Shown: positions 4,476-51,630 of the stretch, one piece after another
Numbering within the stretch: position 1 is the first letter of the stretch
Layout of the letters: each line of letters starts with the position of its first letter
Source of the DNA: Thermoanaerobaculia bacterium
GTDB taxonomy: Bacteria > Acidobacteriota > Thermoanaerobaculia > Multivoradales > UBA5704
Assembly: GCA_035462575.1 (NCBI GenBank)
Contig: DATHUD010000178.1
Coordinates: 1 to 51,921 of the forward strand
Reading direction: 5' to 3'
DNA length: 51,921 nt
Program-made: the position numbers and the translations under genes
Notes under the pieces: model-generated
The model's input: the letters and a program-made list of their open reading frames with translations, nothing else
Databases searched by the model: none
What the model was told of the DNA's origin: nothing

Positions 4476-4530
4476 GCGGGTCTCCCGTTACAGACGGCAA
4501 GACCTTTATGCCAGAGGGGTTTGATCCCCC

Positions 4531-4558
4531 GGTGGCGGGAGGGTGGCGTGGGGGTGAC
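4531..4558 (-). promoter_or_regulatory. Three 11-bp-phased direct repeats (possible degenerate Pho box) upstream of the acyltransferase pair
   Basis: The minus strand reads GTCACC-cccac-GCCACC-ctccc-GCCACC. It lies 56-83 nt upstream of the GTG at 4475 and immediately downstream of the phoR stop at 4562. Confidence 0.25.
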
Positions 4559-4561
4559 GAC

Positions 4562-6325: not shown

Positions 6326-6332
6326 GCCGGGA

Positions 6333-7016: not shown

Positions 7017-7239
7017 GTGAGAAGAGGCTACCACGGAGTCTTCCACAGCCGGTGCGGAAAAGCCTGCGGAAAATCCCCCGGAAAGGGCCGCCTGAGAGCC
7101 ATTCTCCGGCCTTTTGTCCGCTTTGACCAATGGTCTGTGCAGAGAGGCTAATCGACTGAAAGCAATACGTTTAGCCGCGCTCTTGCCGTTTCTGGAAAAG
7201 CGGGCGGGAGGAAGGATGGACAGATTTCCACAACGCGTC

Positions 7240-7278
7240 TGTGAATTCCCTGTGAGGGTTGTGTTAACTCTCTGTGAC
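7240..7278 (-). promoter_or_regulatory. Candidate tandem Pho boxes: four hexamers at exact 11-bp phasing upstream of phoB-phoR
   Basis: The minus strand reads GTCACA-gagag-TTAACA-caacc-CTCACA-gggaa-TTCACA (plus strand CTGTGA x3 plus GTGTTA). It sits in an AT-enriched 238-bp intergenic region. Confidence 0.45.
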
Positions 7279-7368
7279 GCAGAGGTTTAACCGGGTTTTT
7301 CCAGGGTGCTCGAAGATGGAGAGGTGGAAGATTTTTTTACAACGCCGCGTAAAAAGGAGTCACCAGGC

Positions 7369-8973: not shown

Positions 8974-8983
8974 ATCCGGGATT

Positions 8984-10675: not shown

Positions 10676-10740
10676 CGACGATCTCCTTAGATTTCCCTTC
10701 TCGCCGGGATGCCATGGTAGGAGGCCCGTCCGGACGATCG

Positions 10741-10769
10741 CGTGACGGAGGAGTGAAAAGGCCGTCACG
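10741..10769. promoter_or_regulatory. Inverted repeat CGTGACGG-N13-CCGTCACG containing 11-bp-phased GTGAC/GTGAA/GTCAC pentamers in the divergent PHP-ppx / ppk intergenic region
   Basis: On the plus strand, GTGAC is at 10742, GTGAA at 10753 and GTCAC at 10764. The minus strand reads GTGAC-N6-TTCAC-N6-GTCAC, 66-94 nt upstream of the PHP gene ATG. Confidence 0.3.
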
Positions 10770-10905
10770 GATCAAGATCTTGAGGTCCTCTCGGCGTCGC
10801 ACCTCCAGCTCTGGGGGTGCCTCCGGCAGAGGCCCGGACCGGGTCGAATTTGTCACACGCTCGCCGCTTCCCGATCCGGGCGGTTGTGCGAAGATTTTTC
10901 TCCCT

Positions 10906-13050
<2,145 letters not shown>

Positions 13051-19945: not shown

Positions 19946-20026
19946 TGTAGGGGCGCCCCTGCGTGGGCGCCCTGCTCACTCCAGCCTTTCCCCCACCCAG
20001 GGCGGCCACATAGGGCCGCCCCTACA
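19946..20026. repeat. Composite REP-like palindromic element between the convergent glf and halogenase genes
   Basis: Outer inverted arms are TGTAGGGGCG (19946-19955) and CGCCCCTACA (20017-20026). Inside are the self-complementary GGGGCGCCCC (19950-19959) and GGGCGCCC (19965-19972). A hairpin GGGCGGCC-acatag-GGCCGCCC lies at 20000-20021. Confidence 0.6.
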
Positions 20027-20057: not shown

Positions 20058-21632
20058 TTACGCCGCCACCAGGGCTTCGGTCCGCAACTGCCTCAAATAT
20101 TCGACCTGCGAGGGGAGCGTTGCGACCATCCGCTGGGTCTTCTCGCGCAGGGCCTGGAAGGCGGCGAGCGCGTTGGTGTCGTCCAGGTGATCGAGGGCCG
20201 GCAGGCTTCTCTGCGGGTGGTAGTTGAGCCCGAGCAGCATCACGGAGTACGAGTAGGACTCGAAGCCGTGATAGGTCGGATTGATGTTCTTGGCGTTCGG
20301 CAGGCGGTGCTTCCAGATCTCCAACCGCTCCTTCAAATCCGGCGAGATCGCGAGATCCTTGACCGCCCGCCAGAATTCCGTGTCGGTCCGCTCGGTCGTG
20401 CAGTAGTGGAGGATGAGGAAGTCGCGGACGCCGTCGATGCCTTCCGCGATCAGACGGTTGTAGCTCCGGACCATCTCCTGGTCGATGGCGTCGCCGGGGA
20501 GATGGCTGACCAGCTCCTCGATCCCGTGCTGGATGAAGAAGATGCCCGTCGATTCGAGAGGCTCGACGAAGCCGCTCGACAGGCCGATCGCGACACAGTT
20601 CTTCACCCACGAGTTGCGGCACCGGCCGATCCGCATCTTGATGTGGTTGGCCCGCAGCGACTCCGCGGCAGGCCCGAGGTGGCGGCGGAACTCGCGCTCC
20701 GCCTCGTCCTTCGAAAGGAACGCGCTCGAATAGACGTATCCCGTCCCGGTCCGTCCATAGAGAGGGATGTCCCAGACCCAGCCGGCGCTCAAGGCGGTGG
20801 CGGTCGTGTACGGGTTGATGCCCTCGGCCGCGATGTCCTTCGGGATCTGCATCGCGATCGCGCTGTCGCAGAGGAGCGAATCGGAGAACGGGATGAACGG
20901 CTCGCCGAGCGCCTGGTTGATCAGCAGGCCGCGGAAGCCGGTACAGTCGACGAACAGGTCGCCCCGGATGGGCCCGTGCGCCGCGGTGACGACGTGATCG
21001 ATGGCGCCGTCCTCCCGGAGCTTGACCTCGTTGACCTCGTCGACGACCTGGCGGACGCCGCGCGCCATCGCGTAGCCCTTTAAGTACTCGGCGAGGAGGC
21101 TGGCGTCGAACTGGTAGGCATAGGGGTACTGCACCTTATGGTCTGAAAGGAAGCTGTTCTTGGGCTTGCCGCCGCCGCCGAAGAAGTCCTGGACCTGCTC
21201 GTCGAAGACCCGGCCGTCGTAGAACCGGGGCGAGCGCTTCGCTTCGCAGAGAGCCGGGATGCTGAAGCAGGCCTGGTCGAAAGCCTCCTCGTGCCGCTTG
21301 AGCTTGAGCCACCACTCGCCCATGTTGTAGCCGTCGACCGTCTCGTACCGCTGGAACGGGTGGTAGAAGTGGGCGCCGTCGTTGCGCCAGTTGGCGAATT
21401 TGATGGCGAGCTTGTAGGTGGCGTTGCAGCCCGGCATCCAGTCCTGCTCTTCGAGCCCGAGGAAGTCGAAGAAGAGCTTGATGGTGCTGAAGGTCGCCTC
21501 TCCGACGCCGACCGTCTTGATGGTGGCCGACTCGACGAGGGTTACATTGACGCTGGGAGCTGCCTTCTTGAGATAGGAAGCGGTCATCCAACCCGCCGAG
21601 CCACCGCCCACGATAACGACACTCTTGGCCAT
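20058..21632 (-). CDS. Flavin-dependent tryptophan halogenase (PrnA/RebH-type, free-substrate class); regiochemistry not predictable
   Basis: 524 aa from MAKSVVIVGGGSAGWMTASYL (GxGxxG). It carries GVGEAT, the catalytic-Lys region ATYKLAIKFANW, the WxWxIP motif GWVWDIPL and the catalytic Glu region SGFVEPLESTGIFF. The ATG at 21630-21632 has a GGAGGG SD. Confidence 0.85.
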   Translation of the reverse strand: MAKSVVIVGGGSAGWMTASYLKKAAPSVNVTLVESATIKTVGVGEATFSTIKLFFDFLGLEEQDWMPGCNATYKLAIKFANWRNDGAHFYHPFQRYETVDGYNMGEWWLKLKRHEEAFDQACFSIPALCEAKRSPRFYDGRVFDEQVQDFFGGGGKPKNSFLSDHKVQYPYAYQFDASLLAEYLKGYAMARGVRQVVDEVNEVKLREDGAIDHVVTAAHGPIRGDLFVDCTGFRGLLINQALGEPFIPFSDSLLCDSAIAMQIPKDIAAEGINPYTTATALSAGWVWDIPLYGRTGTGYVYSSAFLSKDEAEREFRRHLGPAAESLRANHIKMRIGRCRNSWVKNCVAIGLSSGFVEPLESTGIFFIQHGIEELVSHLPGDAIDQEMVRSYNRLIAEGIDGVRDFLILHYCTTERTDTEFWRAVKDLAISPDLKERLEIWKHRLPNAKNINPTYHGFESYSYSVMLLGLNYHPQRSLPALDHLDDTNALAAFQALREKTQRMVATLPSQVEYLRQLRTEALVAA

Positions 21633-21644
21633 GTCAAAGCCCTC

Positions 21645-21703
21645 CCCCAAAGACAAAAAGGAATAGATGAGAGGAAGGCCCGCCCGGGAGGACCGGCTTC
21701 CTC
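21645..21703 (-). terminator. Terminator/attenuator-like hairpin between the monooxygenase and halogenase genes
   Basis: The 7-bp outer stem is GAGGAAG (21671-21677) / CTTCCTC (21697-21703) with a GC-rich interior. On the minus strand it is followed by TCATCTATTCCTTTTTGTCTTTG. Confidence 0.35.
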
Positions 21704-21764
21704 CCTCACCGAAGTGGTGAGATTCAGTCTCTGAGTGCTTGAGGCCCGCCAAAGCGGGACAAGC

Positions 21765-23234
21765 TCAAGATTTCGCCACCGGCTCGCTCACGCCGACTCC
21801 GGCAGGCTCTTCGGTCGCCTCGAGCTCGGGGAGGGGGACGGCGACCACCGTGGGGGCCGCCTTGCGCCCCTGGGCGAGGCGGGCGGCGCGGCGGTTGGCG
21901 AGGGCGGTCTTGATCCGGACCTGGAGGGAGACGGCCCCGAGCACGAGGTCCAGCCCCAGCCAGCGGGCGATCCGCTCCTGGCGGCGGTGGCGCTCCACGC
22001 ACTCGGCGTAGGGAAGGGTGCTGTGGGAGACCATGGTGTAGAGCGGCACGGAGTGCTGGCGGAAGAGGCGGTTCAGGAAGATCGAGGTGGTCTTCCGGGC
22101 GGTCACGAGGGGCCGCCGCACGGTGTCGCGCAGCTCGTCGAAATTGTCGATCGAGAGCTGGGCGAGGATGTCCGTGTTGGGCTTCCGGAGCGCCTGGAAC
22201 TCGCGGAACAGGGCGGTCCAGTTGCTCTCGCCGTAGCGGTCGAGCAGGCGGTTCAACGTGGAGGCGTCCTCGAAGGCGGCGTTCATGCCCTGGCCGTAGA
22301 AGGGGACGACCGAGTGGGCGGCGTCGCCGATCAGGAGAACTTTGTCTTTGTAGTGCCAGAGCGAGGTGCGGACGGTGATGAACTCGGAGATGGGGCGGGT
22401 CTTGAACTCCTCGACGGCGTTCGGCATGTAGGGCAGGACGTCTCCGAAGTGGGTCTCGAAGAGGTCCAGGATGTCGCGGTCGGTCTTCATGGCGTCGAAG
22501 CTGTGCCGGCCTTCGAAGGGGAGCACGCAGACGCCGCAGAGGGAGCCGTCGAAGTTGGGCAGGGCGAAGAGCAGGTGGTCGCCGCACGGCCAGATGTGGA
22601 GGGCGTGGTGGTCCATGGGGGGCAGGCCGGGGGCGTCGGCGCGGATGGTGATCTCCTTGTAGCCCCAGGGGAGGTAGTCCTGCCGGTAGTCGGCCCGCTC
22701 GCGGCGCTGCAGGAGCTGGCGGACGATCGAGTAGGCGCCGTCCGCGCCCACGACCAGGTCGGAGGTGAAGCGGGTCTCCTCGCCGGTCCGGGTGTTGTGG
22801 AACATGGCGGTCGCGGTCTCCTTGTCGAGGCCCACGCAGCGCTGGTTGAAGTGGAAGTGGGCGTTCGGCTCCTTCTCGACGGCGTTCAGGAGAACGGCGT
22901 TCAGGTCGTTGCGCGAGAAGGAGTGGATGACCTCCTGGTCGTTCTTGCCGTAGGGCTGGTAGACGACCGTGCCCTTGCCCGAGTGGACGGCGCGGCCGCG
23001 CAGGGGGACGGTGATGGTCGACTGGACCTCCTCTTCGAGGCCGAGCTCGCGCAGGGCGGCCAGGCCCCTTTCGGCGAGGGTGAGCTTGATCGACCGGCCG
23101 ACCTCGACGGGCTCACGGCGCAGGTCGCCGCGCAGCTCGAAGAGGTGGACCTCGTAGCCGCGGCGGGCGAGGTAGATGCCGAGGATCGAGCCGCCGAGGC
23201 CGGCTCCGACGATGGTGATTTTGGGGACTGCCAT
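21765..23234 (-). CDS. kmo: FAD-dependent kynurenine 3-monooxygenase-like aromatic hydroxylase
   Basis: 489 aa starting ITIVGAGLGGSILGIYLARRGYEVHLFE. It carries GRSIKLTLAERG, VVGADGAYSIVRQ, ALHIWPCGDHLLFALPNFDGS, LIGDAAHSVVPFYGQGMNAAFED and RKPNTDILAQLSIDNF. From memory it is collinear with bacterial KMO. The ATG is at 23232-23234. Confidence 0.75.
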   Translation of the reverse strand: MAVPKITIVGAGLGGSILGIYLARRGYEVHLFELRGDLRREPVEVGRSIKLTLAERGLAALRELGLEEEVQSTITVPLRGRAVHSGKGTVVYQPYGKNDQEVIHSFSRNDLNAVLLNAVEKEPNAHFHFNQRCVGLDKETATAMFHNTRTGEETRFTSDLVVGADGAYSIVRQLLQRRERADYRQDYLPWGYKEITIRADAPGLPPMDHHALHIWPCGDHLLFALPNFDGSLCGVCVLPFEGRHSFDAMKTDRDILDLFETHFGDVLPYMPNAVEEFKTRPISEFITVRTSLWHYKDKVLLIGDAAHSVVPFYGQGMNAAFEDASTLNRLLDRYGESNWTALFREFQALRKPNTDILAQLSIDNFDELRDTVRRPLVTARKTTSIFLNRLFRQHSVPLYTMVSHSTLPYAECVERHRRQERIARWLGLDLVLGAVSLQVRIKTALANRRAARLAQGRKAAPTVVAVPLPELEATEEPAGVGVSEPVAKS

Positions 23235-23283
23235 GGTCGTGCTCCGAGTAAGTCGAGTCTCCGGGCTTCAGGCGTTCTGAAGC

Positions 23284-26200
23284 TCACGTTCTTGCCGATG
23301 TGACCGCGAGACCGGGAGGGGCGGCGGATCGCTCGGCCAGCTCTTTGAGCAAGGCGAGCCTCTCGAGCCCCGCGAGGGCCGTTTCCACGTCGATGCCGAA
23401 ATCGATCAGACAGGCCACCTCGTCGACGCCGATCTCCTCCAGGTGCCGCACCATCTCTATACAGGTGCCGGGTGTTCCGAAAAGCGCGCTGTCGCGGACG
23501 TAGCGCTCGACCGCGTAGGCGAGCACCTGCTCCTTGTCCTCCTCGGTGATCGTCCGGATCTCCCCGGGGCGCTGGCGGCTTCGGGCGAGGTTTTCGAGGA
23601 GCCCGCCGAAGGAGCGGAGGTAGTGGGTGAAGGGGGCCCGCACCGTTTCGAGCACGGCGTCCGGGTCGTCGCCCACGAAGGTGTGGAGCATCAGTGTCAC
23701 GCGGCCGGTCCCGGGGTCGTGGCCGGCGGCGGCCCGGGCTTCGCGGTACTGCCGGATCTTGGCGGCCACCCCTTCGAGGCTCTGCCCGAGAAGGTTCACG
23801 AGGAGGTTGGCGCCGATCTCTCCGGCCCGGAGCACGGTGTTCGAGGTGGCGGCCGCGGTGATCCAGACCGGAAGCTCGGGCTGGACGGGCCGGGGGTAGA
23901 GCCGGACCCGGACCTCCTGCCCCACGCCGCCCGGCGCGGCCACGGCCTCGCCCCGCCAGAGGCGGCGGATGGTGTCGATCCCCTGGAACATGACCTCCCG
24001 GCGGTCTTCGTAGTGGCCGGGGAAGAACACGAAGTCGTCGGCGTGCCAGCCCGAGGCGAAGGCGATGCCGGCACGGCCCCGGGAGTAGTTGTCGACCAGG
24101 GCCCAGTCCTCGGCCACCCGGACCGGGTGGTGGAGGGGGAGGACGCCGCTCCCGGCGCGCAGGTGGACGCGTTCGGTGACCATCGCGAGCGCGGCGCCGG
24201 CCACCGCGGGATTGGGGAAGAGGCCGCCGAAGGGGTGGAAGTGGCGCTCGGGGGTCCAGACGGCCTCGAAGCCGTGCCGGTCGGCGAATTTCGCTCCTTC
24301 GAACAGCAGCCGCCAGCGGTCGCCCCGCCCGCTCTCCTCGCTCGCGAAGTAGAAGAGGCTGAAGGAGATCGGCCGCCGCCTGGCGGGTTGCGGCCGGGCC
24401 GGCGGCGCCTCCGGCTCCGGCGCCGGCGCGGCCTCCTCCATCTCCTGGCCGAGAAGCTCCCGGGCGTCCTCGTCCGACATTTCGTCGAGCTCGGCCAGCA
24501 GGCGGGCCATTTCGTCGTCCTCGACCCGGTTCCCCTGGGCTTCGAGGATGGCGCGCGCCATCCCCGCGATCGTGGGGTTGGCGAACAGGCGCTCCAGGGG
24601 CAGCTCGACGTCGAACGCCTGGCGGACGCGGGAGATCAGGAGGATCGCCTTCAGCGAGTTGCCGCCGTGGGCGAAGAAATGGTCTTCGACTCCGACCTTC
24701 TCGACCTCCAGCACCTCGGCGAAGATCGAGGCGAGCGTCTCCTCGGCGGGCATGCGGGGGGCCACGTAGGAGGGCTCGCGCCGCTCCTCGGGCGGCAGGG
24801 CGCCGGGCGCGGGCAGGGCCCGGCGGTCCACCTTGCCGTTTCCCGTGAGCGGCAGCCCGGGGAGGAAGACGAAGACCGAAGGCACCATGTAGGCGGGGAG
24901 CTTTTCGCGCAGGAACCCCTGGAGGGCGGGGGCGTCGACCGTCTCGCCGGGAGCGGGCACCACCCAGGCTGCGAGGCTCCGGTCCCCGCGCTCGCCCGGG
25001 GCGTCGACCACCGCGGCGCGCACGGCCGGGTGCTGCGCCAGGGCCGCCTCGATCTCGCCGAGCTCGATCCGATAGCCCTGGACTTTCACCTGGAAGTCCT
25101 CGCGCCCGAGGAATTCGAGGGTGCCGTCCGGGAGGAACCGCCCGAGGTCGCCGGTCCTGTAGAGGCGCTCGCCGGTCCGGGGGTGGACGAGAAAGCCGGC
25201 CGCCGTTTTTTCCGGGTCGCGCCAGTAGCCCCGGGCGAGGCCGGTCCCGCCGATGTGGAGCTGCCCGGGAACCCAGTCCGGGCGGGGAGCGAGCGCCTCG
25301 TCCAGCACGTGGAAGGTCTGGTTCGCCATCGGCCGGCCGTAGGGGATGCTCTTCCAGTCCGGATCGACCCGGTCGATGGGGAAGAGGATCGACCAGATGG
25401 ACGCCTCGGTGGCACCGCCCAGGCTGATTATTTCGATGGCGGGCGCAAGCGCCCGGAGCCGCCCCGGCAGATCGACGGGAATCCAGTCGCCGGAGAGGAG
25501 GGCGAGCCGCAGCGACGGCGGCATCGGCTCGGAGCGCCCTTCGAGGTCGTGGACGAGCATCTCCATCAACGCGGGGACCGTGTTCCAGAGGGTCACCCCG
25601 TGCACGCGCAGGTAGCCCGCCCAGCGCGCCGGCTCGCGGAGAGCCGCGGGCTCCGGAAAGACGATCGCGCCGCCGGCCGCCAGGAGGCCGAAGAGGTCGT
25701 AGACCGAGAGGTCGAAGCTGAGGGCGGACAGGGCGAGGACGCGGTCGTCCGGCCCCACGCGGAAGCGTCCGTTCACGTCCGCCACGGTGTTCAGGGCGGC
25801 GCGGTGGTCGATCATCACGCCCTTGGGGAGGCCCGTCGAGCCGGAGGTGAAGATCACGTAGGCCAGGTCGTCCGGGGTCTGGACGGCTTCGAGCGGCGCC
25901 TCCGGGAGGGGCGCGTCGTCGTCCGCCACGGGGAGGACCCGGACCTCGGCCGGCCACGCGAGGGCGTCCACGAACCGGGGTTGGGTCAGGGCGAGCCCGA
26001 CCTCCCCGTGCTCCAGCAGATAGCGGAGGCGCTCCGGGGGGAGCGCGGGATCGACCGGCAGGTAGGCCGCGCCCGAGAGGAGGACGCCCAGCACGGCGAC
26101 CACCTGCTCCCAGCCCTTTTCCATCACCACCGCGACCAGGGTGTTGGGCCGGGCGTCCTCTTCGCGCAGGCTCCGCCCCAGGCGGTCGGCCCGCGCGAGA

Positions 26201-29200
26201 AGCTCGCCGTAGGTGAGGGTCCGGCCCGGGGCGATCACGGCGGCGCGCTCCGGGTGCCGGGCCGCCTGGGCGAGAAACGGCTCGTGGAGGAGGCCCCGGG
26301 GAACCGGCGCGGCCGTGGCGTTGACCTCCTCGCGCCGGGCGAGCTGGGCGGCCGGGATCGATGCCGTGACCGGTCCCGTCCAGACGTCCGGGTCGGCCAG
26401 CCGCTCGAGGAGCTCCCGGTAGGCGGCGAACAGGCCGTCCAGCATCCCGGCGGGGAAGAGGGCCTGGACGGCGTCCCAGTTGAAGACGAGGGCGCCGCCC
26501 CGCTCGCTCACCTGGTGGTCCAGGAGCACCTGCGGGGTCTGGGAGATGGCATAGACCGGCTCCACGGGCAGCGCCGGGGCGGGGGGGCCCTCGCGCGCGG
26601 CTTCGAGGCCGAGCGTGCTGGTGAAGACGACCGGCGAGGCCGGCCGGGCGAGCGCGCCCTGCGAGCGCGCCGTCTCGCGCAGCACCTCGACGCCGCTCAC
26701 GTGGCGGTGGTCGAGATCGCTCCAGAGCTGCCGTTGGACCGCCTGCGCCCGCCGCTCGAAGCTCTCCCCGGGCGAGCGCTCGACCTCCAGGAGGATCGTG
26801 GAGGTGAAGTCCCCCACGAGCTTCTCGACGTCCGGGTGGAGGGGGAGCCGGTTGAACAGGGTGAGCACGATCGTGAAGCGGGACGTCTTGCTCCAGGTCC
26901 CCAGCACCTCGGAGAAGGCGGCGAGCAGCAGGCCCGACGGGGTGACGCCGGAGCAGAGGGCCCGCTCTTTGAGGCGCGACCACGCTGGAGGTTCGAGCCG
27001 CGCGCTGCGGCGGACGAAGGTCTGCTCGCGGAGCGCTCCGAGACTCTGGGCGAGCGGGAGCTCCGGGCCCGGCGGGAGGGTTTCCAGGCGCCTCTGCCAG
27101 TACTCCCGGGAGCGGCGGAAGGTCTCGGTGTCGCGCCGGGCGATCCCGGCGAGCACGTAGTCGCGGAAGGACAGCTCCAGCGGATCGCCGAGCGGGGCGT
27201 CCGGCTCCGCGTAGGCTTTGAGCAGCTCCCGGGTGAGGAGGCCGAAGCTCCAGGCGTCGGCGATCAGGTAATCGAAGCTGAAAAAGAGGCGGACGCGGCC
27301 CCCCGGCAGAAGGCCGGCGCGGATCTCGAAGAGCGGCCAGCGGTCGATCGCGAGGCTCTGGTGCGACATCCGCTCGCGGCGCTCGGCGAGCCGCGCGGAG
27401 ACCGCCTCGGGCGACTCCCGCCGGAGATCCTCCACCTCGATCCGGTAGGGCGGCACCTCGGGCAGGACCTTCTGCCGCCCGTCGGGGAGGAAGACGGCGC
27501 GCAACATGTCGTGCCGGTCGATCAGCCGCTGCCAGGCCCGCTCCAGCCGCGCGAGGTCGAGCCCCTCGCCTTCGAGCTCGACGTAGCGGTGCGAGGTCAC
27601 GTGGCCGAGCTCCAGCTCGCCCGTGCGCCCCACCCAATAAGCCTGCTGGATGTCGGTCAACGGGAACGGCAGGTGGCGGTCCGCCGGGACGGGCCGCAGG
27701 GGCTCGAAGGAAGCCGCGCCGCCGCTCTCCCGGCTTTCGAGGAGGACGGCCAGATCGGCGACCGTGGGCGCCTCGAAGAGCGAGCGCAGGCCGATCTCCC
27801 GGCCGAGCGCCTCCTCGATGCGGAAGACGAGCCGGGTCGCCAGAAGCGAGTGGCCGCCCAGCGCGAAGAAGTCGTCGTGCACCCCCACCGTCTCGCGGCC
27901 GAGCACCTCGCGCCAGAGGGCGGCCAGCGCCTCTTCGAGCGGTGTCCGCGGCGCGACGGCCGTGGTCTCCGGGGATTCGGCCGGCTCGGGCAGAGCGCGG
28001 CGGTCCACCTTGCCGTTGGGGGTGAGCGGCAGGCGTTCCAGGATCACGAAGGCGGACGGCACCATGGGCTGGGGGAGCCTCTCGCGGATGCCTTCCCGCA
28101 GCGCGGCGGCGGTGACCTCGCGGCCGGGGACCACGTAGGCGACCAGCCGCTCCTCTCGGGCCACGACGACCGCTTCGCGAACGCCGGGCAACGAGGCGAG
28201 GACCGCCTCGATCTCCCCGGGCTCGATCCGGTAGCCCCGGATCTTCACCTGGAGGTCGGCGCGGCCGTGGAAGTCCACCTCGCCGTTCGGGAGATAGCGG
28301 CCGAGGTCGCCCGTCCCGTAGAGGTCCGCGACGAACCGCTCCCGCGTCAGCTCCGGGTCGTTCAGATAGCCGGCGGCGAGATACGGCGTGCGGATCGCGA
28401 TCTCGCCCAGCTCGCCCACGCCGGCCAGCTCTCCTGCCGGATTGCGCACGAGGAGCTGGACCCCGTCGATCCCCCGGCCGAGCGGGATTCTCTCCCGCTC
28501 GGGCTCCTGGACGACGTGATACCCCATGCCCTGGGGCGTTTCGGTCGCGCCGTAGTAGGAGACGACGGTACACCCGGGAGCCAGGCGCCGCAGCCGCTCG
28601 AGGCTCCGCCGGGTCAGCACGTCGCCGCCGAAGAAGGCGTAGCGGAGCGCCGGAAGCTCCTCGCCGCGCGTCTCCGTGAGGATCTCGCTCATCGCGGGCG
28701 TCAGGTGGGCAACCGTGATTTCTTCCCCGCGCATCCAGCGGGCGAGGCGGCCCGCCGCCAAAGCTTCGGGGTCGGGGATGCAGAGGGTGGCTCCGGCCGT
28801 GAGCGGCGTCAGGAGATCGCGCAGCAGCGGATCGTGGGCGAGCCCCGAGAGCAGGCTGAACCGGTCGGATTCGCCGAGGCCGAACCGCTCGCGGTGCCAC
28901 GCCAGGAAGTGCGAGAGCGGGCGGTGCGGGCCCGCGACCGCCTTGGGCGTGCCGGTCGAGCCCGAGGTGAAGGCCACGTAGGCGAGGTCGTCCGGCCCGG
29001 TGACGACGTCGGGAGCGGGCAGATCCGGCAGGGCTGCCGGCAGATCGAGCCGCGGGCAGCCTTCCAGAGATTCCGGCAAGGAGCCGGCCGCCTCCATCCG
29101 CAGCAGGGCTTTCGGTGCGGCAATCCGGAAGATCTCGGCGAGCCGCGCGGCCGGGTAGGCGGAGTCGAGGATCGTGAAGGCCGCGCCCGCCCGGAGCGTG

Positions 29201-32200
29201 CCGAGCACGGCCAGGGCGAGCGGAGCGCTCCGATGGGCGTAGATCGCGACCCGGTCTCCTTTCCGGACACCCTGCGCCGCGAGCCAGCCGGCGAGCCGGC
29301 GGCTCTCTACATCCAGCTCCCCGTAGGTCCAGGCTCCGGAGACCGCCGTCCGCTCCGGATGCCGTCGCGCCCGCTCGGCAAACATTTCGTGCGCGGCGTC
29401 TTCCCAGACCGGCGGCAGCGGGGCTTTGGGATCGGGCAGCAGACCCCGGGCGCGCTCCGTCACGAGCGACAGGCTCCCCACGGGGGCTTCGGGACGCGCG
29501 AGCGCCTGCTCCAGGAAAAGCTCGTACTGCGCGAGCAGCTCCTCCATGCGCGCCGCATCGAACAGGTCGGCGTTGTAGACCAGCTCGATCCGGAGCGTCT
29601 CCCCGGCTTCGGCCACGTAGAAGGTCATGTCGAACTTCGACGGGAGGGCCGGGAGGGCGACCGCCTCCAGGGTGAGCCCCGGCAGGCGCAGCTCGGCCGG
29701 CGGCAGGTTGAGCAGATTGAACATCACCTGGAAAAGCGGCGTGCGGGAGAGGTCGCGCTGCTGTGGCAGCTCGGCGAGCAACGCTTCGAAGGGCACGTCC
29801 TGGTGCGAGAACGCGCCGAGCGTGACCTCGCGCACGCGGGCCACCAGCTCCGCGAAGCCCGGGGAGCCGGAGAGGTCCGTGCGGAGGACGAGGGTGTTCA
29901 GGAAGATCCCGATCAGCCGCTCCGTCTCGACCGTCCGCCGGCCCGCGACGGGCGTCCCCACCAGGACGTCCTCCTGGCCGCTCTGGCGACCGAGGAGCGC
30001 CTTGGCTGCCGCGAGGAGAACCATGAAGAGGGTGGCCCCCCGCTCCCGGGCAAAGGCGCGCAGCCTTCCGGTCGCCGTGGAAGTGAGGACAAGCTCGCGA
30101 TGCCCGCCGCGGAAGGTCTGGACGGCCGGGCGCGGCCGGTCGGCCGGCAGCTCCAGGGGGGCGATCTCGCCTTCCAGCCGTTCGCGCCACCAGGCGAGGT
30201 CCGCCTCGCGGGTCTCCTCGACCGCCTCGCGCTGCCAGACCGCGAAGTCGGCGTACTGGACCGGCAGCTCCGGCAGGGGGGACGGCCGGCCCTGGGAGAA
30301 GGCGTCGTAGAGCGCGGCGATCTCGCGGACGAAGACCCCGACCGACCAGCCGTCGCAGACGACGTGGTGGAAGACGGCGAGGAAGCGGTGGCGGTCCGGC
30401 CCGAGCCGCAGCAGGAGCGCGTCGATCAGGGGACCGCGCGCGAGGTCGAAGCTCCGGCGGGCGTGCTCCGCGGCGATCCGCCCGGCCTCCTCCTCGGGGA
30501 CGTCGATCACGGGCAGGGGGATCTCGAGCGCCGGAAGGATCTTCTGGCGGGGCGCGCCGTCGACCGTGGGGAAGATTGTCCGCAGCGATTCATGCCGGCG
30601 CACCACCTCGGCCAGGGAAGCAGCGAGAGCGTCCCCGCGGAGAGCCCCGCGGATCTCGACCACGCCGGGCATGTTGTAGGTGGGAGCGCCCGGCTCCAGC
30701 CGGTCCAGCACCCAGAGCCGCTCCTGCGAAAACGAGAGGGGGAGGGTCGCGCCCGGCGGGTGCGGGAGCCGAGGGATGGCGAGGCCCGGGCCTCCGCCCC
30801 CCACCTCCGCGGCCAGGGCCTCGACGGTCGTGGCCTCGAACAGCTTGCGCAGCGGCAGGCTCACACCGAAGGCCGCGCGGACCCGGGCGGCGACACGGGT
30901 GGCGAGCAGCGAGTGGCCACCCAGGGCGAAGAAGTCGTCGCGGGCCCCCACCCTCGCGATCCCGAGGACCTCTTCGAAGATCCCGGCGAGAAGCTCCTCG
31001 GCCGGCGTGCGCGGCGCGACGAAGCCGTCCTCCGCGGACACGGCCGGCTCCAGGAGGGCCAGGGCCTTGCGGTCGATCTTGCCGTTGGGCGTCCGGGGCA
31101 GCTCCGGGAGGCTCACCCAGTCGAGGGGCACCATGGCCTCGGGGAGCGTCTCGCGGAGAAACGCGCGCAGAGCGGCGGGTTCGGCCACCCCGGCGACATA
31201 GGCCGCGAGGCGCGCGCCCTCCCGGACGAGGACGACCGCCTGGTCCACGCCGGGATGCCGGGCGAGGGTGGCCTCGATCTCCCCCAGCTCGATCCGCACG
31301 CCGCGGATCTTGACCAGGTGGTCGATGCGGCCGAGAAATTCGAGCCCGTCCGGCCGCCACCGCCCGAGGTCGCCTGTACGGTACAGCCTTGCTCCAGGGA
31401 TGTCCGCAAACGGATCGGGGCCGCAGCGCTCCGCGGTCTCCGCCGGCCGCTCGAAGTAGCCCCGGCCCACCGGCACGCCGCCGATGCAGATCTCGCCGGG
31501 CACTCCCAGGGGAGAGAGCCCGAGGTTGCGGTCGAGCACGAGGAGGCGGGTGTTGTGGATCGCAGAACCGAGCCGGAGGGGCTGCTCCGGCTTCAAGCGA
31601 CGAGCTGTCACATCGATCGTCGCTTCGGTGGGACCGTAGAGATCGACCAGCTCGGCATCCATCGCGCGGAAGAAGCGGTCTCGGACGTCAGCCGTCAGCG
31701 CTTCTCCGCCCAGGAAGACGCGGCGCAGGCCGCGGCAATCTCCCAGCCCTTCGTCGAGGAGATCCCCCAGCATGGAGGGGACCGACTGGAGGATCGTGAT
31801 CCTCTGTGCATGGGCGGCGCGGACGAGCGCCGCGGGATCCCGGTGCTCTCCCGGTCGGGCCATCACCACGGTGCCCCCGACCATCAGGGGCGACCAGAAT
31901 TCCCAGATCGAGGCGTCGAATCCGAAGGGGGCCCTCTGGAGCAACCGGTCGCTGGGCCTGAAGGGAAACGCTTCCTGCAGCCAGAGGAGGTTGTTGACGA
32001 GGGAGCGATGCTCGATCATCACCCCCTTGGGCCTTCCCGTCGAGCCGGAGGTGAAGAGGAGATAGGCCAGGGCGTTGTCCGGAACCGGGAGGTGCAGGGG
32101 CTCCCCGCTCCCCGAGGAGGAGAGCTCCGCGATCCGTTCCCGGTCGAGGACCACCGTGGGCCGGGCGTCCTCGATCATCGCCGCCACGCGCTCGGCCGGG

Positions 32201-33932
32201 TAGTCCGGATCGAGGGGGAGGTAGGCGCCGCCGGCTTTGAGCACGCCGAGAAGGCCGACGACCATCTCGGCCGAGCGCTCGACGGAGAGACCCACCCGGG
32301 CGTCGGGGCCCACCCCCATCGCCGCCAAGTGACGAGCGAGGCGGTTGGACCGCTCCTCGAGATCCTGGTAGGTGAGCGTGACCTCGTCTGCGACGACCGC
32401 CGGAGCCTTGGGAGTGCGGGTCACCTGGGCCTCCACCAGCTCGTGGACCAGGAGTCCCTCCGGCCGGGGGACCCGAGTCCCTTCGGCGATGAGCTGCCGG
32501 CGCTGCGCCGCAGAGAGGATCGCGAGCTCCCCGATCCGCCGCTCCGGCACTTCGAGGACCGCCGCGATCAGCGCTTCGTGATGCGAGAGCAACCGCTCGG
32601 CGGTCGCCTCCTCGAAGAGGTCGGCGCTCCATTCGAGCATGCCCAGGAAGCGCCCGTCCTCTTCGCTCCAGAGGAGGCTCAGGTCGAGCTTGGCCACCCC
32701 GGACTCGACCGGGAGCGGCGTGAGCCGGACACCGCCCATCCGCATCTCCGGCCAGGGCTGGTTCTGGAGGGCGCAGAGGACCTGGAAGAGCGGGTTCCGG
32801 TCCGTGGACCGCTCGACCTCCAGGTGCTCGACCAGCTTCTCGAAGGGGAGCTCGTCGTGGGCATAGGCGGCGAGCGTCGTCTCCCGGACGCGCCCCAGGA
32901 GCTCGCGGAAGCCGGGATCGCCCGAGAGGTCGGTGCGCAGCACCAGCGTGTTGACGAAGAACCCGACCAGCCCCTCGACCTCGCTCCGGCCGCGGTTGGC
33001 GACCGGAGAGCCGGCCGCGAGGTCGGTCTGGCCGGAATAGCGAGAGAGCAGAGTCTGACAGAGCGCGAGAAGCACCATGAACGGCGTGGCCCCGTGGGCC
33101 CGGCCGAGCTCGCGCAAGCGCTCGGAAGCTCCGGACGAGAGGGCCTGCCGCAGATGCCCGCCACGGTGGCTCGGGACGGGCGGGCGTGGCCGGTCGGTGG
33201 GGAGCTCCAGGGGTTCCAGCCCGGTGAGCCGGCCGCGCCACCAGGCGAGCTCCGCGTCGAGCTTCTCGCCGCTCAGGCGCTCGCGCTGCCAGAGCGCGAA
33301 GTCCGCGTACTGGATCGGCGGCTCGGGCAGCGGCGACGGCCGGTCCTCCCGGAACGCCTCGTAGAGGGCCGTCATCTCCCGGATCAGCACGGTCATGGAC
33401 CAGCCGTCCGAGACGATGTGGTGCATCGTCACGAGGAGAACGTGGTCCTCCGCGGACAGGCGCAGGAGCGCCAGGCGGAGCAGCGGGCCGCGGACGAGGT
33501 CGAACGGCCGCCGCGCCTCCTCGGCCGCGAGGCGCTCCCCCTCGGCGGGATCCGGGACGTCGGCGAGAGGCAGGGCGACCCGGTCCGGAGGCGGAGCGAC
33601 GGCCTGGAGAGGGCGGCCGTCCTCGGCCACGAACGTGGTGCGCAGCGACTCGTGCCGGCGGACGAGCTCCGTCCAGGTGCGCGAGAGCGCCCTGACGTCG
33701 AGAGGGCCCGTGAGGCGGAGGGCGGCCGGGACGTTGTAGGGGGACGTGCCCTCCCCGAGCTGGTCCAGGAACCAGAGCCGTTCCTGGGAGAAGGAGAGCG
33801 GCAGGGGGCCCGCGCTCGCGGCCCGGGGGCGGATCGGCTCGTCGCCGGCCGCCCGGTCCTTCTCCTTGAGCTTCGCGGCGAGCGCGCGGAGCCGGTCGGC
33901 GGAGAGCGCGGCGACCCGCTTCGAAGCTTCGG

Positions 33933-33936
<4 letters not shown>
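23284..33936 (-). CDS. NRPS 2: C-A(Gln)-T-C-A(Lys2-type, substrate unknown)-T-Cy-A(Cys)-T-LLM (luciferase-like monooxygenase); no TE or R
   Basis: 3550 aa.
- Module 1: C1 has MHHIVSDGWS. A1 is aa ~500-955 (nt ~31072-32439) with code DAWQFGLIDK. T1 is GGHS(1009)L.
- Module 2: C2 has FHHVVCDGWS. A2 is aa ~1520-1990 (nt ~27967-29379) and carries SGLAHDPLLRD in place of FDxS, with code DPRHFGYQGK. T2 Ser is 2030.
- Module 3: Cy is aa 2091-~2520 (nt ~26376-27666) with FPLTDIQQAYWVGR, the DxxxxD motif FDYLIAD at 27256-27273, and QTPQVLLDHQ. A3 is aa ~2574-3044 (nt ~24800-26217) with code DLYNLSLIWK. T3 is GGNS(3094)L.
- LLM is aa 3190-3550 (nt 23287-24369), starting ISFSLFYFASEE. Confidence 0.9.
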
Positions 33937-48230
<14,294 letters not shown>

Positions 48231-48279
48231 CAGGGAACAAAGACTAGACGAACCGGAGCCGGATTTGTTTGGTTCTAGG

Positions 48280-50898: not shown

Positions 50899-51630
50899 AT
50901 GCAAGATTCTCGATATGAGCTCGAGAAGCTCGTCACCGTGGAGACCTTCAGCACGCCGTGGGAGGCCCAGCTCGCCCGCGCGCGGCTGGAGACGGAGGGG
51001 ATCCACTCCGTCATCGCGGACGAGAACTTCGTCCGCCTCTACTGTGCCCTCTCGAACGCTCTGGGCGGGGTCAAGCTCCAGGTGCGCAAGGAGGACGCCC
51101 CCCGGGCCGCCGAGCTCCTCCAGGACCGCCATCCGATCCCCGAGATCTATCTGGTGACCGAGGAGGATGCGGCTCAGCCCCGCTGCCCCGGCTGCAAGTC
51201 CGACAACCTCGACTTCGAACGCTGGTCCCGCCTCGGCTTCCTCGGCTCGTTGGTGATCCTGGGGGTGCCGCTGCCGATCCCGCGCCGCCGCTGGATCTGC
51301 CGCAACTGCGGAGCGGACTGGAAGGAAGAGGAGATCCCGCAGGCCGCTTTGGAAGAGGCCGCCTTCTCCGGGCCGAGGCGGGGGGCGCTGATCACGGTCG
51401 CCCGCTTCGTCACCCCGTGGGAGGCGCAGCTCGCGAAGAGTCTCCTCGAATCGGACGGCCTCGAGGCCTGCATCGTCGAGGAGCGCCTGCCGCCCGTGAG
51501 CCTGCTTTCGGCTGAGCCGCTCGCGTTGAATCGCGTCGAGGTCCGGGAGGACGACGCCACCCGGGCGCTCGCGATCCTGGCCGAGCTCGAAACCCTGGAC
51601 GACGACGAGGAGCTTCCCGCCTCCGAGTAG
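50899..51630 (+). CDS. Double DUF2007 (putative signal-transducing, PII-like) protein with a central Cys4 zinc ribbon
   Basis: 243 aa with two copies of the TPWEAQLA...L...G(I/L) module (aa ~12-75 and ~165-230). They flank CPGC...CRNC, which surrounds a hydrophobic stretch LGFLGSLVILGVPLPI. Confidence 0.6.
   Translation: MQDSRYELEKLVTVETFSTPWEAQLARARLETEGIHSVIADENFVRLYCALSNALGGVKLQVRKEDAPRAAELLQDRHPIPEIYLVTEEDAAQPRCPGCKSDNLDFERWSRLGFLGSLVILGVPLPIPRRRWICRNCGADWKEEEIPQAALEEAAFSGPRRGALITVARFVTPWEAQLAKSLLESDGLEACIVEERLPPVSLLSAEPLALNRVEVREDDATRALAILAELETLDDDEELPASE

What the first reader, a model, noticed from the sequence alone, without database searches (positions are those of the whole stretch)
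20058..48230. Compact 28-kb FAAL-primed NRPS lipopeptide cluster with halogenase and kynurenine monooxygenase
Four co-directional minus-strand genes are bounded by an outer-membrane protein gene upstream and a REP-like element with a convergent operon downstream.
- The two megasynthetases are translationally coupled (ATGA at 33933-33936). Together they read FAAL-ACP-C-A-T-C-A-T-C-A-T-C-A-T | C-A-T-C-A-T-Cy-A-T-LLM.
- I extracted specificity codes by hand alignment to GrsA-PheA. As a check, the same mapping reproduces from my recalled yeast Lys2 sequence the code I remember for Lys2, DPRHFVMRAK.
- The codes are DLFNNALTYK (Ala), DALWLGGTFK (Val), DGKDLGVVDK (one change from the Glu code DAKDLGVVDK), DALWLGGTFK (Val), DAWQFGLIDK (Gln), DPRHFGYQGK (unassigned) and DLYNLSLIWK (Cys).
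- The predicted backbone is fatty acyl-Ala-Val-Glu-Val-Gln-X-thiazoline.
- I found no epimerase, methyltransferase, TE, R, MbtH, PPTase or exporter.
- I cannot match the combination of lipoinitiation, a Lys2-type internal module, a terminal Cy module, a C-terminal LLM, and Trp-halogenase plus KMO tailoring to any characterised pathway from memory.
Basis: partly seen in the sequence, partly recalled or inferred. Interest (0 to 1): 0.85.

Follow-up and report, generated by a model that had tools for sequence, protein, structure and literature searches.

The report
Orphan acidobacterial lipopeptide synthetase gene cluster
This is an intact but uncharacterised two-gene peptide-making assembly line from an uncultured soil Acidobacterium, sitting between genes that lie next to each other in a close relative; it is a normal kind of orphan natural-product cluster with a few unusual details, not a new kind of system.

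Summary
Two translationally coupled minus-strand NRPS genes (33933-48230 and 23284-33936) read FAAL-ACP-(C-A-T)x4 | (C-A-T)x2-Cy-A-T-LLM. My alignment to GrsA/1AMU reproduces all seven hand-derived specificity codes exactly.

The downstream genes are a true KMO-family enzyme and a true tryptophan 5/6-halogenase. The window comes from an uncultured Thermoanaerobaculia (Acidobacteriota) lineage. No close homologue from a cultured or characterised source was found.

The "compact four-gene cluster" reading is only partly right:
- In a relative with about 90% nucleotide identity, the upstream "outer-membrane" gene (DUF5916) is followed directly by KMO and the halogenase.
- The 25,026 bp holding both NRPS genes (23253-48278) is cleanly absent there.
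- KMO homologues sit co-directionally beside different NRPSs in 7 of 12 related contexts, often with DUF5916 or an MFS_3 exporter.
- Close halogenase homologues are mostly found without any NRPS.
- No adenylation domain is predicted to load a Trp-derived residue.

The terminal LLM belongs to the MupA/PuwE family of alpha-hydroxylases that act on carrier-bound thioesters, and T-LLM termini recur elsewhere. How the chain is released and what KMO and the halogenase do remain inferred.

Verdict: new member of a known kind, moderate interest.

The parts
48280..50553 (-). DUF5916 protein (757 aa) with a signal peptide, probably in the cell envelope or outer membrane. It is a conserved neighbour of the KMO gene.
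   Evidence: It matches Pfam PF19313 and has a signal-peptide-like N-terminus. It lies next to the KMO homologue in L001, L004, L130, L131 and L132. It has no relative by sequence in the PDB.
33933..48230 (-). NRPS1 (4765 aa): FAAL-ACP, starter C-A(Ala)-T, C-A(Val)-T, C-A(Glu-like)-T, C-A(Val)-T.
   Evidence: Codes are DLFNNALTYK, DALWLGGTFK, DGKDLGVVDK and DALWLGGTFK. All five carrier serine motifs are present.
46311..48230 (-). Loading region: fatty acyl-AMP ligase plus ACP (NRPS1 residues 1-640).
   Evidence: It scores 578 bits against the first 566 positions of NCBIfam PRK05691 (a 4334-position NRPS/PKS model) and 451 bits to the fatty-acid--AMP ligase model PRK05850. Top PDB hits are FAALs: 7R7E, 3KXW, FadD32, FadD23 and FadD28. 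The DIP2-like FAAL insertion domain is present.
23284..33936 (-). NRPS2 (3550 aa): C-A(Gln)-T, C-A(X, DPRH type)-T, Cy-A(Cys)-T-LLM. Its ATG overlaps the NRPS1 stop codon (ATGA).
   Evidence: Domains come, the overlap, and the codes DAWQFGLIDK, DPRHFGYQGK and DLYNLSLIWK.
28009..29382 (-). A6, a Lys2-like adenylation domain with an AHDPLLRD A4 motif and an unassigned substrate.
   Evidence: The code is DPRHFGYQGK. Relatives carry DPRHFVFRSK, DPRHFGFQAK and DPRHFVYRAK, and several are followed by T-Cy-A(Cys).
26395..27663 (-). Heterocyclisation (Cy) domain.
   Evidence: It has DYLIADAWS in place of HHxxxDG and only 132 bits to the Pfam Condensation model, against 243-353 bits for the other C domains. 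It is homologous to the Cy domains of the hits.
23287..24399 (-). C-terminal FMN-dependent luciferase-like monooxygenase domain, directly after the last T domain (24547-24738).
   Evidence: It scores 495.6 bits to TIGR04020 (MupA/Atu3671 family; cut-off 244). The best solved structure is PuwE, 6KET, at 396 bits.
21765..23234 (-). Kynurenine 3-monooxygenase family flavoprotein (489 aa), 49 nt downstream of NRPS2.
   Evidence: The top ten PDB hits are all KMOs. R81, Y95 and N364 are invariant across 24 family members. Homologues lie beside NRPS genes in 7 of 12 contexts.
20058..21632 (-). Flavin-dependent tryptophan halogenase (524 aa counted from Met41).
   Evidence: It scores 485 bits to PF04820. 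Full-length PDB matches are SttH (5HY5) 623 bits, 8FOV 617, 6NSD 611, PyrH 608 and Th-Hal 604. The GGGSAGW and WVWDIP motifs are visible in the alignment.
23253..48278 (.). A 25,026-bp segment holding exactly the two NRPS genes. It is present here and absent from the relative L001, which is about 90% identical.
   Evidence: blastn maps L001 1-1326 to window 49607-48279 and L001 1334-4537 to window 23252-20059. The junction sequences are shown.
19946..20026 (.). REP-like compound palindrome between the convergent halogenase and glf genes.
   Evidence: It has 29-nt arms that are 86% complementary, plus inner GGGCGCCC and GGGCGGCC hairpins. It is single-copy in the window. L001 lacks it, with 33 nt in place of 103 nt.
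50899..51630 (+). DUF2007 gene, divergent from DUF5916. It is a conserved marker of this locus.
   Evidence: Pfam match. The same divergent position is seen in L009, L086 and L131.

Best explanation
The region encodes an intact, uncharacterised lipo-initiated NRPS assembly line from an uncultured Thermoanaerobaculia bacterium.

Proposed assembly:
1. The FAAL adenylates a fatty acid and loads it on the ACP.
2. The starter C domain N-acylates Ala.
3. The chain grows by Val, a Glu-like residue, Val, Gln and an unassigned residue X. X is loaded by a Lys2-type (DPRH) A domain and may be an acidic amino acid activated at its side-chain carboxyl.
4. The Cy module adds Cys and cyclises it to a thiazoline held on the last T domain.
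5. The fused MupA/PuwE-type LLM hydroxylates the alpha-carbon of that last carrier-bound thioester. This could aromatise the ring to a thiazole after loss of water, or set up oxidative off-loading. No TE, R or terminal C domain is present.

Genomic setting: the two NRPS genes sit as a 25-kb block in the spacer of a conserved DUF5916-KMO(-halogenase) gene string. They are probably co-transcribed with it. The KMO and Trp halogenase most likely make a (chloro-)3-hydroxykynurenine-type metabolite. Its link to the peptide is suggested by gene linkage only.

Shown: gene and domain architecture, specificity codes, family memberships, and the presence/absence polymorphism.
Inferred: substrates assigned from the codes, the LLM reaction, the release route, and any role of KMO or the halogenase in the peptide.
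For: Architecture and codes:
- Domain order and intact core motifs in all seven A domains, and five LGGHSL/FGLDSL carrier motifs in NRPS1 and two in NRPS2. The last T reads HGGNSL.
- Codes mapped on a verified 1AMU reference.
- FAAL identity.

LLM:
- Family membership.
- MupA is described as the alpha-hydroxylase of an ACP-bound thioester (PMC10952193).
- TIGR04020 LLMs in PKS/NRPS systems are proposed as alpha-hydroxylases and chain-shortening oxidases (PMC8739492).

Operon-like packing: 49-nt, 49-nt and 132-nt spacers plus the ATGA overlap, and no terminator-like site on the coding strand.

KMO-NRPS linkage:
- KMO homologues (61-92% identity) lie co-directional and closely spaced with NRPS genes in the window, L004, L087, L132, L009, L088 and L089, in three different gene orders.
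- The NRPSs of L004, L087 and L132 also end in a Cy-like C domain plus a Cys-type A domain with no TE.
- A KMO-like::halogenase fusion ORF lies beside an NRPS in L101/L115.

Taxon: hit labels and the GTDB locus L009.
Against: - A close relative keeps DUF5916-KMO-halogenase without the NRPS genes. Five of 12 KMO contexts show no NRPS in the retrieved flanks. KMO therefore does not need this synthetase.
- No A domain has an aromatic, Trp or Kyn type code.
- No tryptophan dioxygenase, formamidase or flavin reductase gene is in the window.
- No TE, PPTase, MbtH or exporter is in the window, so release and export are unexplained.
- Substrate assignments rest on remembered code tables, not on a predictor run here.
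- C-domain subtypes, and hence stereochemistry, were not determined.
Confidence: 0.55

Rival explanations
1. The DUF5916-KMO-halogenase genes form an independent conserved unit, for example for making or handling a kynurenine-derived metabolite. They have no chemical role in the peptide. The NRPS pair is mobile cargo that landed in, or was lost from, a plastic intergenic slot.
For: - There is a clean 25,026-bp presence/absence difference with breakpoints in the DUF5916-KMO spacer.
- The same slot holds an MFS_3 gene in L131 and nothing in L001.
- KMO has no NRPS nearby in L001, L130, L131, L133 and L086.
- Halogenase homologues at 69-87% identity sit beside beta-lactamase-fold, HlyD/MacB, transposase and DNA-ligase genes.
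- An integrase lies beside KMO in L130.
- The predicted peptide contains no Trp-derived residue.
- The Kyn carboxylate-binding residues of KMO are conserved, which fits a free amino-acid substrate.
Against: - In 7 of 12 contexts an NRPS lies next to KMO. It is always on the same strand, with spacers from about 10 nt to about 1.5 kb, and in three different gene orders. Random insertion should not preserve that.
- The FAAL and starter C of L009 are about 70% and 62% identical to the window's, yet that NRPS lies on the other side of KMO.
- The KMO-like::halogenase fusion is again next to an NRPS.
Confidence: 0.35
2. The unassigned module (A6, DPRHFGYQGK) loads the KMO/halogenase product, so the peptide contains a chloro-3-hydroxykynurenine-type residue before the thiazoline.
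For: - A6 is the only unassigned A domain.
- Its pocket has Gly at positions 301 and 331 where Lys2-type relatives have Val and Ala or Ser. That implies a larger cavity.
- The KMO and halogenase genes follow directly downstream.
Against: - KMO-linked NRPSs in relatives show no DPRH-type domain within the retrieved flanks.
- DPRH-type domains occur in clusters with no KMO or halogenase: L134 and L135.
- From memory and untested here: DPRH codes mark Lys2 and other side-chain-carboxyl-activating domains, not aromatic substrates.
Confidence: 0.1
3. It is a pyoverdine-like or siderophore-like system. The acyl chain would be a transient membrane anchor. The thiazoline, and possibly an o-aminophenol from 3-hydroxykynurenine, would bind metal. 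DUF5916 and, in relatives, MFS_3 would handle export.
For: - The FAAL scores highest (578 bits) on the N-terminus of NCBIfam PRK05691, a large NRPS/PKS model. I recall this model as PvdL-based, but did not check that.
- MFS_3 (annotated by Pfam as 'transmembrane secretion effector') is next to KMO in six related loci.
- A penicillin-amidase gene sits in a related DPRH-type cluster, L134.
- A Cy-Cys module is typical of thiazoline siderophores (established knowledge).
Against: - The window has no TonB-dependent receptor, no hydroxamate or catecholate building-block genes, no acylase and no MFS.
- The residue before the thiazoline is not an aryl acid.
Confidence: 0.12
4. The synthetase is an incomplete or decaying remnant, because it lacks a TE, PPTase and exporter, and makes nothing.
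For: No release domain, PPTase or transporter is in the window. A close relative has no NRPS at this position.
Against: - Two uninterrupted ORFs cover 24.9 kb, with GC3 of 0.92 and all core motifs intact.
- TE-less Cy-A-T termini recur in relatives.
- T-LLM termini recur in other lineages.
- PPTases and type II thioesterases are often encoded elsewhere in the genome (established knowledge).
Confidence: 0.05

Closest known systems
Lipo-initiated NRPSs with an N-terminal FAAL-ACP, such as the PvdL type (pyoverdine) and cyanobacterial lipopeptides like puwainaphycin
   Same: A FAAL with its insertion domain is followed by an ACP and a starter C domain. The FAAL scores highest (578 bits) on the N-terminal part of NCBIfam PRK05691, which I recall as PvdL-based.
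   Different: The modules differ: Ala-Val-Glu-Val-Gln-X-Cys, against Glu-Tyr-Dab in PvdL (from memory). There are no E domains and no TE, and the lineage is Acidobacteriota.
MupA (mupirocin) and PuwE Ox (puwainaphycin) TIGR04020 luciferase-like monooxygenases
   Same: The same LLM subfamily: 495 bits to TIGR04020 and 396 bits to PuwE 6KET. The expected chemistry is alpha-hydroxylation of a carrier-bound thioester.
   Different: Here the LLM is the last domain of an NRPS, after a Cy-A(Cys)-T module and with no TE. The substrate would be a thiazolinyl or cysteinyl thioester, which to my knowledge has not been described.
MtaG/MelG terminal modules (myxothiazol and melithiazol): a monooxygenase domain that releases a terminal amide (recalled from the literature, not checked here)
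   Same: An LLM-type oxygenase in the last NRPS module could cleave the chain off oxidatively.
   Different: In MtaG the oxygenase is embedded inside a Gly-specific A domain and a TE follows. That A-LLM-A layout is seen in L006, P0125 and P0165, not in this window.
Cy-Cys thiazoline/thiazole modules, such as PchE (pyochelin) and BmdB (bacillamide)
   Same: A DxxxxD Cy domain and a Cys-type A domain. BmdB and PchE are among the best PDB hits for A7.
   Different: There is no nitroreductase-type Ox domain, although relatives such as P0241 have one. The residue upstream is loaded by a Lys2-like A domain, not an aryl-acid A domain.
Free-tryptophan 5/6-halogenases SttH, PyrH, Th-Hal and 6NSD
   Same: Full-length matches of 604-623 bits.
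   Different: The regiochemistry is unknown. No flavin reductase is nearby. Close homologues are mostly not in NRPS clusters.
Kynurenine 3-monooxygenase, both housekeeping and BGC-embedded (KMOs supply 3-hydroxykynurenine-derived units in some actinomycete pathways; from memory)
   Same: All best PDB hits are KMOs. The PFYGQGMN motif and the Arg/Tyr/Asn substrate binders are conserved.
   Different: It forms its own clade of 60-90% identity, labelled Thermoanaerobaculia wherever a source names it. It is habitually linked to DUF5916, MFS_3 and FAAL-NRPS genes rather than to other kynurenine-pathway genes.

Membership tests
Lipo-initiated modular NRPS (lipopeptide BGC) | An N-terminal fatty acyl-AMP ligase with the FAAL insertion, followed by an ACP | tested here: met
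   FGLDSL is at residue 598.
Lipo-initiated modular NRPS (lipopeptide BGC) | A starter-type C domain directly after the ACP | tested here: inconclusive
   A C domain is in the right position (243 bits), with an HHIAADF motif. The subtype could not be classified without NaPDoS-type references.
Lipo-initiated modular NRPS (lipopeptide BGC) | Complete C-A-T modules with intact core motifs | tested here: met
Lipo-initiated modular NRPS (lipopeptide BGC) | A dedicated chain-release domain (TE, R or terminal C) | tested here: not met
   None is in either synthetase or in the flanking ORFs.
Lipo-initiated modular NRPS (lipopeptide BGC) | A detectable acylated peptide product | not testable with these tools
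   This needs expression and LC-MS.
Heterocyclising Cys module (thiazoline-forming) | A Cy domain with DxxxxDxxS in place of HHxxxDG | tested here: met
   DYLIADAWS at NRPS2 residue 2222.
Heterocyclising Cys module (thiazoline-forming) | A Cys-specific A domain | tested here: met
   The code is DLYNLSLIWK. I assigned it to Cys from remembered code tables. Several of the Cy-containing hits carry the same or a near-identical code.
TIGR04020 MupA/Atu3671 LLM | A score above the curated family cut-off | tested here: met
   495.6 bits against a cut-off of 244.45.
TIGR04020 MupA/Atu3671 LLM | FMNH2-dependent alpha-hydroxylation of a carrier-bound thioester | not testable with these tools
   Inferred from MupA and from similarity to PuwE.
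Flavin-dependent tryptophan halogenase | Full-length similarity to characterised Trp halogenases, with the GxGxxG and WxWxIP motifs | tested here: met
   GGGSAGW and WVWDIP are visible in the alignment, and the score to SttH is 623 bits.
Flavin-dependent tryptophan halogenase | A role in tailoring this peptide (a Trp-derived residue in the product) | tested here: not met
   No Trp or Kyn type A-domain code was found. Most close homologues are not in NRPS contexts.
Kynurenine 3-monooxygenase | Best similarity to solved KMOs, with conserved substrate-binding Arg, Tyr and Asn | tested here: met
   The roles of these residues are recalled from the KMO structure literature.
Kynurenine 3-monooxygenase | Co-location with other kynurenine-pathway genes (TDO, formamidase, kynureninase) | tested here: not met
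   None is in the window or in the gene tables of 11 related loci.
Any characterised (MIBiG) cluster | High gene-for-gene similarity to a characterised BGC | not testable with these tools
   No MIBiG copy was available. As an indirect test, the best hits are MAG proteins at 64% identity or less, hits from cultured genera are 44% or less, and literature searches found nothing.

The most novel reading that the evidence does not exclude
Thermoanaerobaculia may carry a family of TE-less, Cys-terminated lipopeptide assembly lines that are mechanistically tied to a dedicated KMO/DUF5916/MFS_3 module. In this reading 3-hydroxykynurenine, chlorinated in this member, is either joined to the peptidyl thioester or releases it. 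One possible route is attack by the o-aminophenol. The terminal LLM would provide a new alpha-hydroxylation route to a thiazole or to oxidative off-loading.
Probability: 0.15. Interest if true: 0.7.

Novelty: new member of a known kind. Interest (0 to 1): 0.38.

Why it matters
It adds one well-defined, intact orphan lipopeptide synthetase from a class of Acidobacteriota whose close relatives here are all metagenome-assembled. Several of its features can be tested by experiment:
- an LLM fused after the last carrier domain of a Cy-Cys module, with no thioesterase;
- a Lys2-type A domain inside an elongation module;
- repeated linkage of a dedicated KMO clade with NRPS genes.

The presence/absence polymorphism also gives a natural comparison for asking what the flanking KMO, halogenase and DUF5916 genes do without the synthetase. 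None of this changes current understanding unless the KMO link or the LLM chemistry proves new.

Tried and rejected
- A homologue search with the whole of NRPS2 timed out. I replaced it with the A6-T-Cy segment.
- The genome-contig scan with the KMO alignment was swamped by KMOs at 39-47% identity, mostly Bacteroidota. It returned only one Thermoanaerobaculia locus, L009.
- Literature searches returned nothing useful. They covered Thermoanaerobaculia NRPS, the KMO + halogenase + NRPS combination, LLM + thiazoline, DUF5916, and the strings DPRHF and DPRHSGVVGK. My recollection that DPRH codes mark side-chain-carboxyl activation (Lys2, and the gamma-linked Glu of McyE) therefore stays unverified.
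- I tested whether A6 relatives co-occur with KMO or the halogenase. Both look-ups were negative.
- I tested whether KMO-linked relatives share a DPRH-type A domain. None did within the flanks.
- DUF5916 has no sequence relative in the PDB.
- There are no Rfam matches anywhere in the window.
- The single promoter-like hit, at 21637-21610, overlaps the halogenase start codon, so I disregarded it.
- Foreign origin of the NRPS on composition grounds: rejected. GC is higher (0.73-0.74 against 0.63-0.72 for the flanking genes), but GC3 matches the flanks, and another Thermoanaerobaculia genome has a homologous FAAL and starter C.
- No dual E/C motif (HHxxxxGD) was found, so I have no evidence for D-residues.
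Full report
**What is there**

The window is about 70% GC. On the minus strand it carries, in order:
- a DUF5916 gene (48280-50553);
- NRPS1 (33933-48230, 4765 aa);
- NRPS2 (23284-33936, 3550 aa);
- an FAD monooxygenase (21765-23234);
- a PF04820 halogenase (20058-21752 as listed).

The spacers are 49 nt, an ATGA overlap, 49 nt and 132 nt. No terminator-like site lies on the coding strand in the scanned stretches around KMO/halogenase and upstream of NRPS1. On the + strand, glf and glycosyltransferase genes converge on the halogenase across a compound palindrome at 19946-20026. Further out lie phoU, phoR/phoB, ppx and ppk on one side and a divergent DUF2007 gene on the other.

**Check of the observation**

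Scanning the two synthetases module by module against Pfam gives:
- NRPS1: FAAL-ACP, then C-A-T four times;
- NRPS2: C-A-T twice, then C-A-T-Bac_luciferase.

Linkers are too short to hide an E, MT, TE or R domain. The first C domain has HHIAADF, five have HHxxxDG, and the last has the Cy motif DYLIADAWS.

To test the hand-derived specificity codes, I first showed that my recalled GrsA sequence equals PDB 1AMU over residues 1-556. I then mapped positions 235-517 by MAFFT. The A6 domain has the A4 motif AHDPLLRD and YGATETPQG, so the "Lys2-type" description fits.

The FAAL call is solid: 578 bits to the N-terminal 566 positions of PRK05691, a large NRPS/PKS model that I recall as PvdL-based, and best PDB hits that are all FAALs. 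No MbtH or PPTase motif was found in any frame, and no transporter or thioesterase appears among the ORFs I scanned.

There are two small corrections. The halogenase almost certainly starts at Met41 (nt 21632). The "outer-membrane protein" is a signal-peptide-bearing DUF5916 protein that looks like the first gene of the same transcription unit.

**Identity of the accessory enzymes**

- *Monooxygenase.* Its ten best PDB matches are all kynurenine 3-monooxygenases: rat/human 272 and 257 bits, Pseudomonas 246 bits. In an alignment of 24 family members, R81, Y95, N364 and the PFYGQGMN block are invariant. From the KMO structure literature, which I did not check here, I recall R81, Y95 and N364 as the residues that hold the kynurenine carboxylate.
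- *Halogenase.* It matches SttH, a Trp 5-halogenase (8FOV), 6NSD, PyrH and Th-Hal over its full length at 604-623 bits. The flavin-binding and WxWxIP motifs are present. It is therefore a free-tryptophan 5- or 6-halogenase type.
- *LLM domain.* It scores 495.6 bits to TIGR04020 (MupA/Atu3671 family; cut-off 244). Its best solved relative is PuwE (396 bits). MupA is described as the alpha-hydroxylase of an ACP-bound thioester (PMC10952193). TIGR04020 LLMs in PKS/NRPS lines are proposed as alpha-hydroxylases or chain-shortening oxidases (PMC8739492).

**Where it comes from and whether it is known**

Named homologues of KMO, LLM and the NRPS are almost all from Thermoanaerobaculia or other Acidobacteriota MAGs. 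A GTDB Thermoanaerobaculia genome (L009) shares DUF2007-KMO-FAAL-starter C at 71-76% nucleotide identity.

The best hits to the distinctive A6-T-Cy segment are at most 64% identical over part of the query. Hits from cultured genera (Amycolatopsis, Streptomyces, Sulfitobacter) reach at most 44%. Literature searches found nothing on such a cluster. I could not run MIBiG, so "uncharacterised" is well supported but not formally proven.

**What the neighbours show**

1. *The NRPS pair is a presence/absence block.* Contigs L001-L003, from three sequencing runs, are 88-91% identical in DNA to the window and collinear with it. In them DUF5916 ends, 26 nt follow, and KMO begins. Window 23253-48278 (25,026 bp, exactly the two NRPS genes with their spacers) is absent. 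The KMO-proximal spacer is homologous in both (GGAGCACGAyC-ATG). The synthetase pair is therefore either inserted into, or deleted from, a conserved DUF5916-KMO-halogenase string.

2. *KMO is often, but not always, beside an NRPS.* I examined 12 contexts of this KMO clade (61-92% identity).
   - An NRPS is adjacent, co-directional and closely spaced in seven: the window, L004, L087, L132, L009, L088 and L089. It can lie upstream of KMO, downstream of it, or on both sides.
   - Five have no NRPS in the retrieved flanks: L001, L130, L131, L086 and L133.
   - DUF5916 is adjacent in six. An MFS_3 transporter is adjacent or fused in six.
   - The NRPSs of L004, L087 and L132 also end in a Cy-like C domain and a Cys-type A domain with no TE.
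   - Linkage that survives rearrangement argues for a functional tie between KMO and these synthetases. The NRPS-free relatives show that KMO does not depend on them.

3. *The halogenase is mostly independent.* It has many homologues at 69-87% identity (40 related loci in all). The loci with usable flanks show beta-lactamase-fold, HlyD/MacB, transposase or DNA-ligase neighbours, with no NRPS or KMO. The exception is L101/L115. There a single 1001-aa ORF fuses a KMO-like domain (40% identity to the window KMO) to a halogenase (72% identity), next to a divergent NRPS. That fusion supports a KMO-halogenase partnership in at least some genomes.

4. *The unassigned A domain is not tied to KMO or the halogenase.* DPRH-type A domains are common in NRPSs labelled Acidobacteria, Longimicrobium or Herpetosiphonaceae, and several are followed by T-Cy-A(Cys). 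Two such clusters, L134 and L135, have neither KMO nor a halogenase.

5. *The terminal LLM is not unique.* T-LLM C-termini recur (P0140, P0141, P0237). So do LLMs embedded in A domains (P0125, P0165, L006).

**How it most likely works**

*Shown:* an intact assembly line with a FAAL-ACP loader, seven modules, a Cy-Cys last module and a fused LLM.

*Inferred from the codes (remembered tables):* N-acyl-Ala-Val-Glu(-like)-Val-Gln-X-Cys, with the Cys cyclised to a thiazoline. X is unassigned. From memory, the DPRH pattern is shared with Lys2, which activates the delta-carboxyl of 2-aminoadipate. I also believe it is shared with McyE, which incorporates gamma-linked Glu. An omega-linked acidic residue is therefore my leading guess, but I could not verify it.

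*Inferred from family function:* the LLM hydroxylates the alpha-carbon of the last T-bound thioester.
- On a thiazoline-4-carbonyl thioester this would give a 4-hydroxythiazoline, which can lose water to a thiazole.
- On an uncyclised cysteinyl thioester it could fragment as in terminal-amide formation.

Release is unexplained, since no TE, R or terminal C domain is present. A trans-acting thioesterase elsewhere in the genome, or an LLM-triggered route, are the options.

*Inferred from linkage only:* KMO and the halogenase make a (chloro-)3-hydroxykynurenine-type compound that is connected in some way to the peptide. Against this, no module is predicted to load such a unit, and the precursor enzymes (TDO, formamidase) and a flavin reductase are not nearby.

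**Rivals**

- The main rival is that DUF5916-KMO-halogenase is an independent unit and the NRPS pair is cargo in a plastic slot. I give it about 0.35.
- The idea that A6 loads the KMO/halogenase product gets about 0.1.
- A siderophore-like or pyoverdine-like reading gets about 0.12. It rests on the FAAL's top score on the large NRPS/PKS model, the MFS_3 partners in relatives and the thiazoline.
- A decaying remnant is unlikely (0.05), given 24.9 kb of uninterrupted coding sequence with every core motif intact.

**Novelty and score**

This is a new member of a known kind: an orphan lipo-initiated NRPS cluster from an uncultured Acidobacteriota class. The T-LLM terminus without a TE, the internal Lys2-type module, the KMO-NRPS linkage in this clade and the clean 25-kb polymorphism are interesting details that can be tested. 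Orphan BGCs that match nothing characterised are the rule in such lineages, and no element here lies outside known enzymology. I score interest at 0.38.

The most novel reading not excluded is that KMO-derived hydroxykynurenine takes part in finishing or releasing TE-less lipopeptides, with new LLM chemistry at the thiazoline. I give it a probability of about 0.15. It would merit about 0.7 if true.

Noticed in passing
L101 8597-11602 (same in L115): A single 1001-aa ORF fuses a KMO-like domain (40% identity to the window KMO, with Asn364 replaced by His) to a Trp halogenase (72% identity). It lies divergent from an NRPS that starts with a starter-type C domain. Two contigs from two samples differ by 2 nt.
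   Followed up: partly
L004/L005 5212-9963 and 13340-21422: An NRPS gene ends C(Cy-like)-A-T fused to an MFS transporter (1583 aa). Downstream of DUF5916 are called genes of 1645 aa and 12,708 aa with no Pfam hit at all.
   Followed up: no
L006 18436-21027 (Pyrinomonadaceae MAG): An LLM (56% identity to the window's) is embedded inside an A domain (A-LLM-A, the MtaG-like layout). A KMO homologue (47% identity) lies in the same NRPS neighbourhood.
   Followed up: no
window 19946-20026: The REP-like compound palindrome is missing from the relative L001, which is about 90% identical (33 nt there against 103 nt here). It is therefore a recent gain or loss, and it is single-copy in the window.
   Followed up: partly
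L130 268-1446; L091 3423-4700: A phage-type integrase lies 1.5 kb from the KMO-DUF5916 pair in one relative. A YhgA-like transposase lies next to the halogenase in another. Both suggest these loci are mobile or plastic.
   Followed up: no
L134 12269-17187; L135 9231-15232: Related DPRH-type NRPS clusters carry a MacB-type exporter plus a penicillin-amidase-family gene (L134), or a PPTase followed by an A(DPRHFGFQAK)-T-Cy-A(Cys)-T loading bimodule (L135).
   Followed up: no
window 1-13050: A phosphate-regulon-style block: ArsP-type permease, phoU, an acyltransferase, phoR/phoB, ppx, an unknown 594-aa ORF and ppk.
   Followed up: no
L131 1-2185: A ThiF-rhodanese, ThiS, JAB and PALP gene set (a CysO/CysM-type sulfur-carrier system) lies about 8 kb from the DUF5916-MFS_3-KMO string. 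It is probably unrelated.
   Followed up: no
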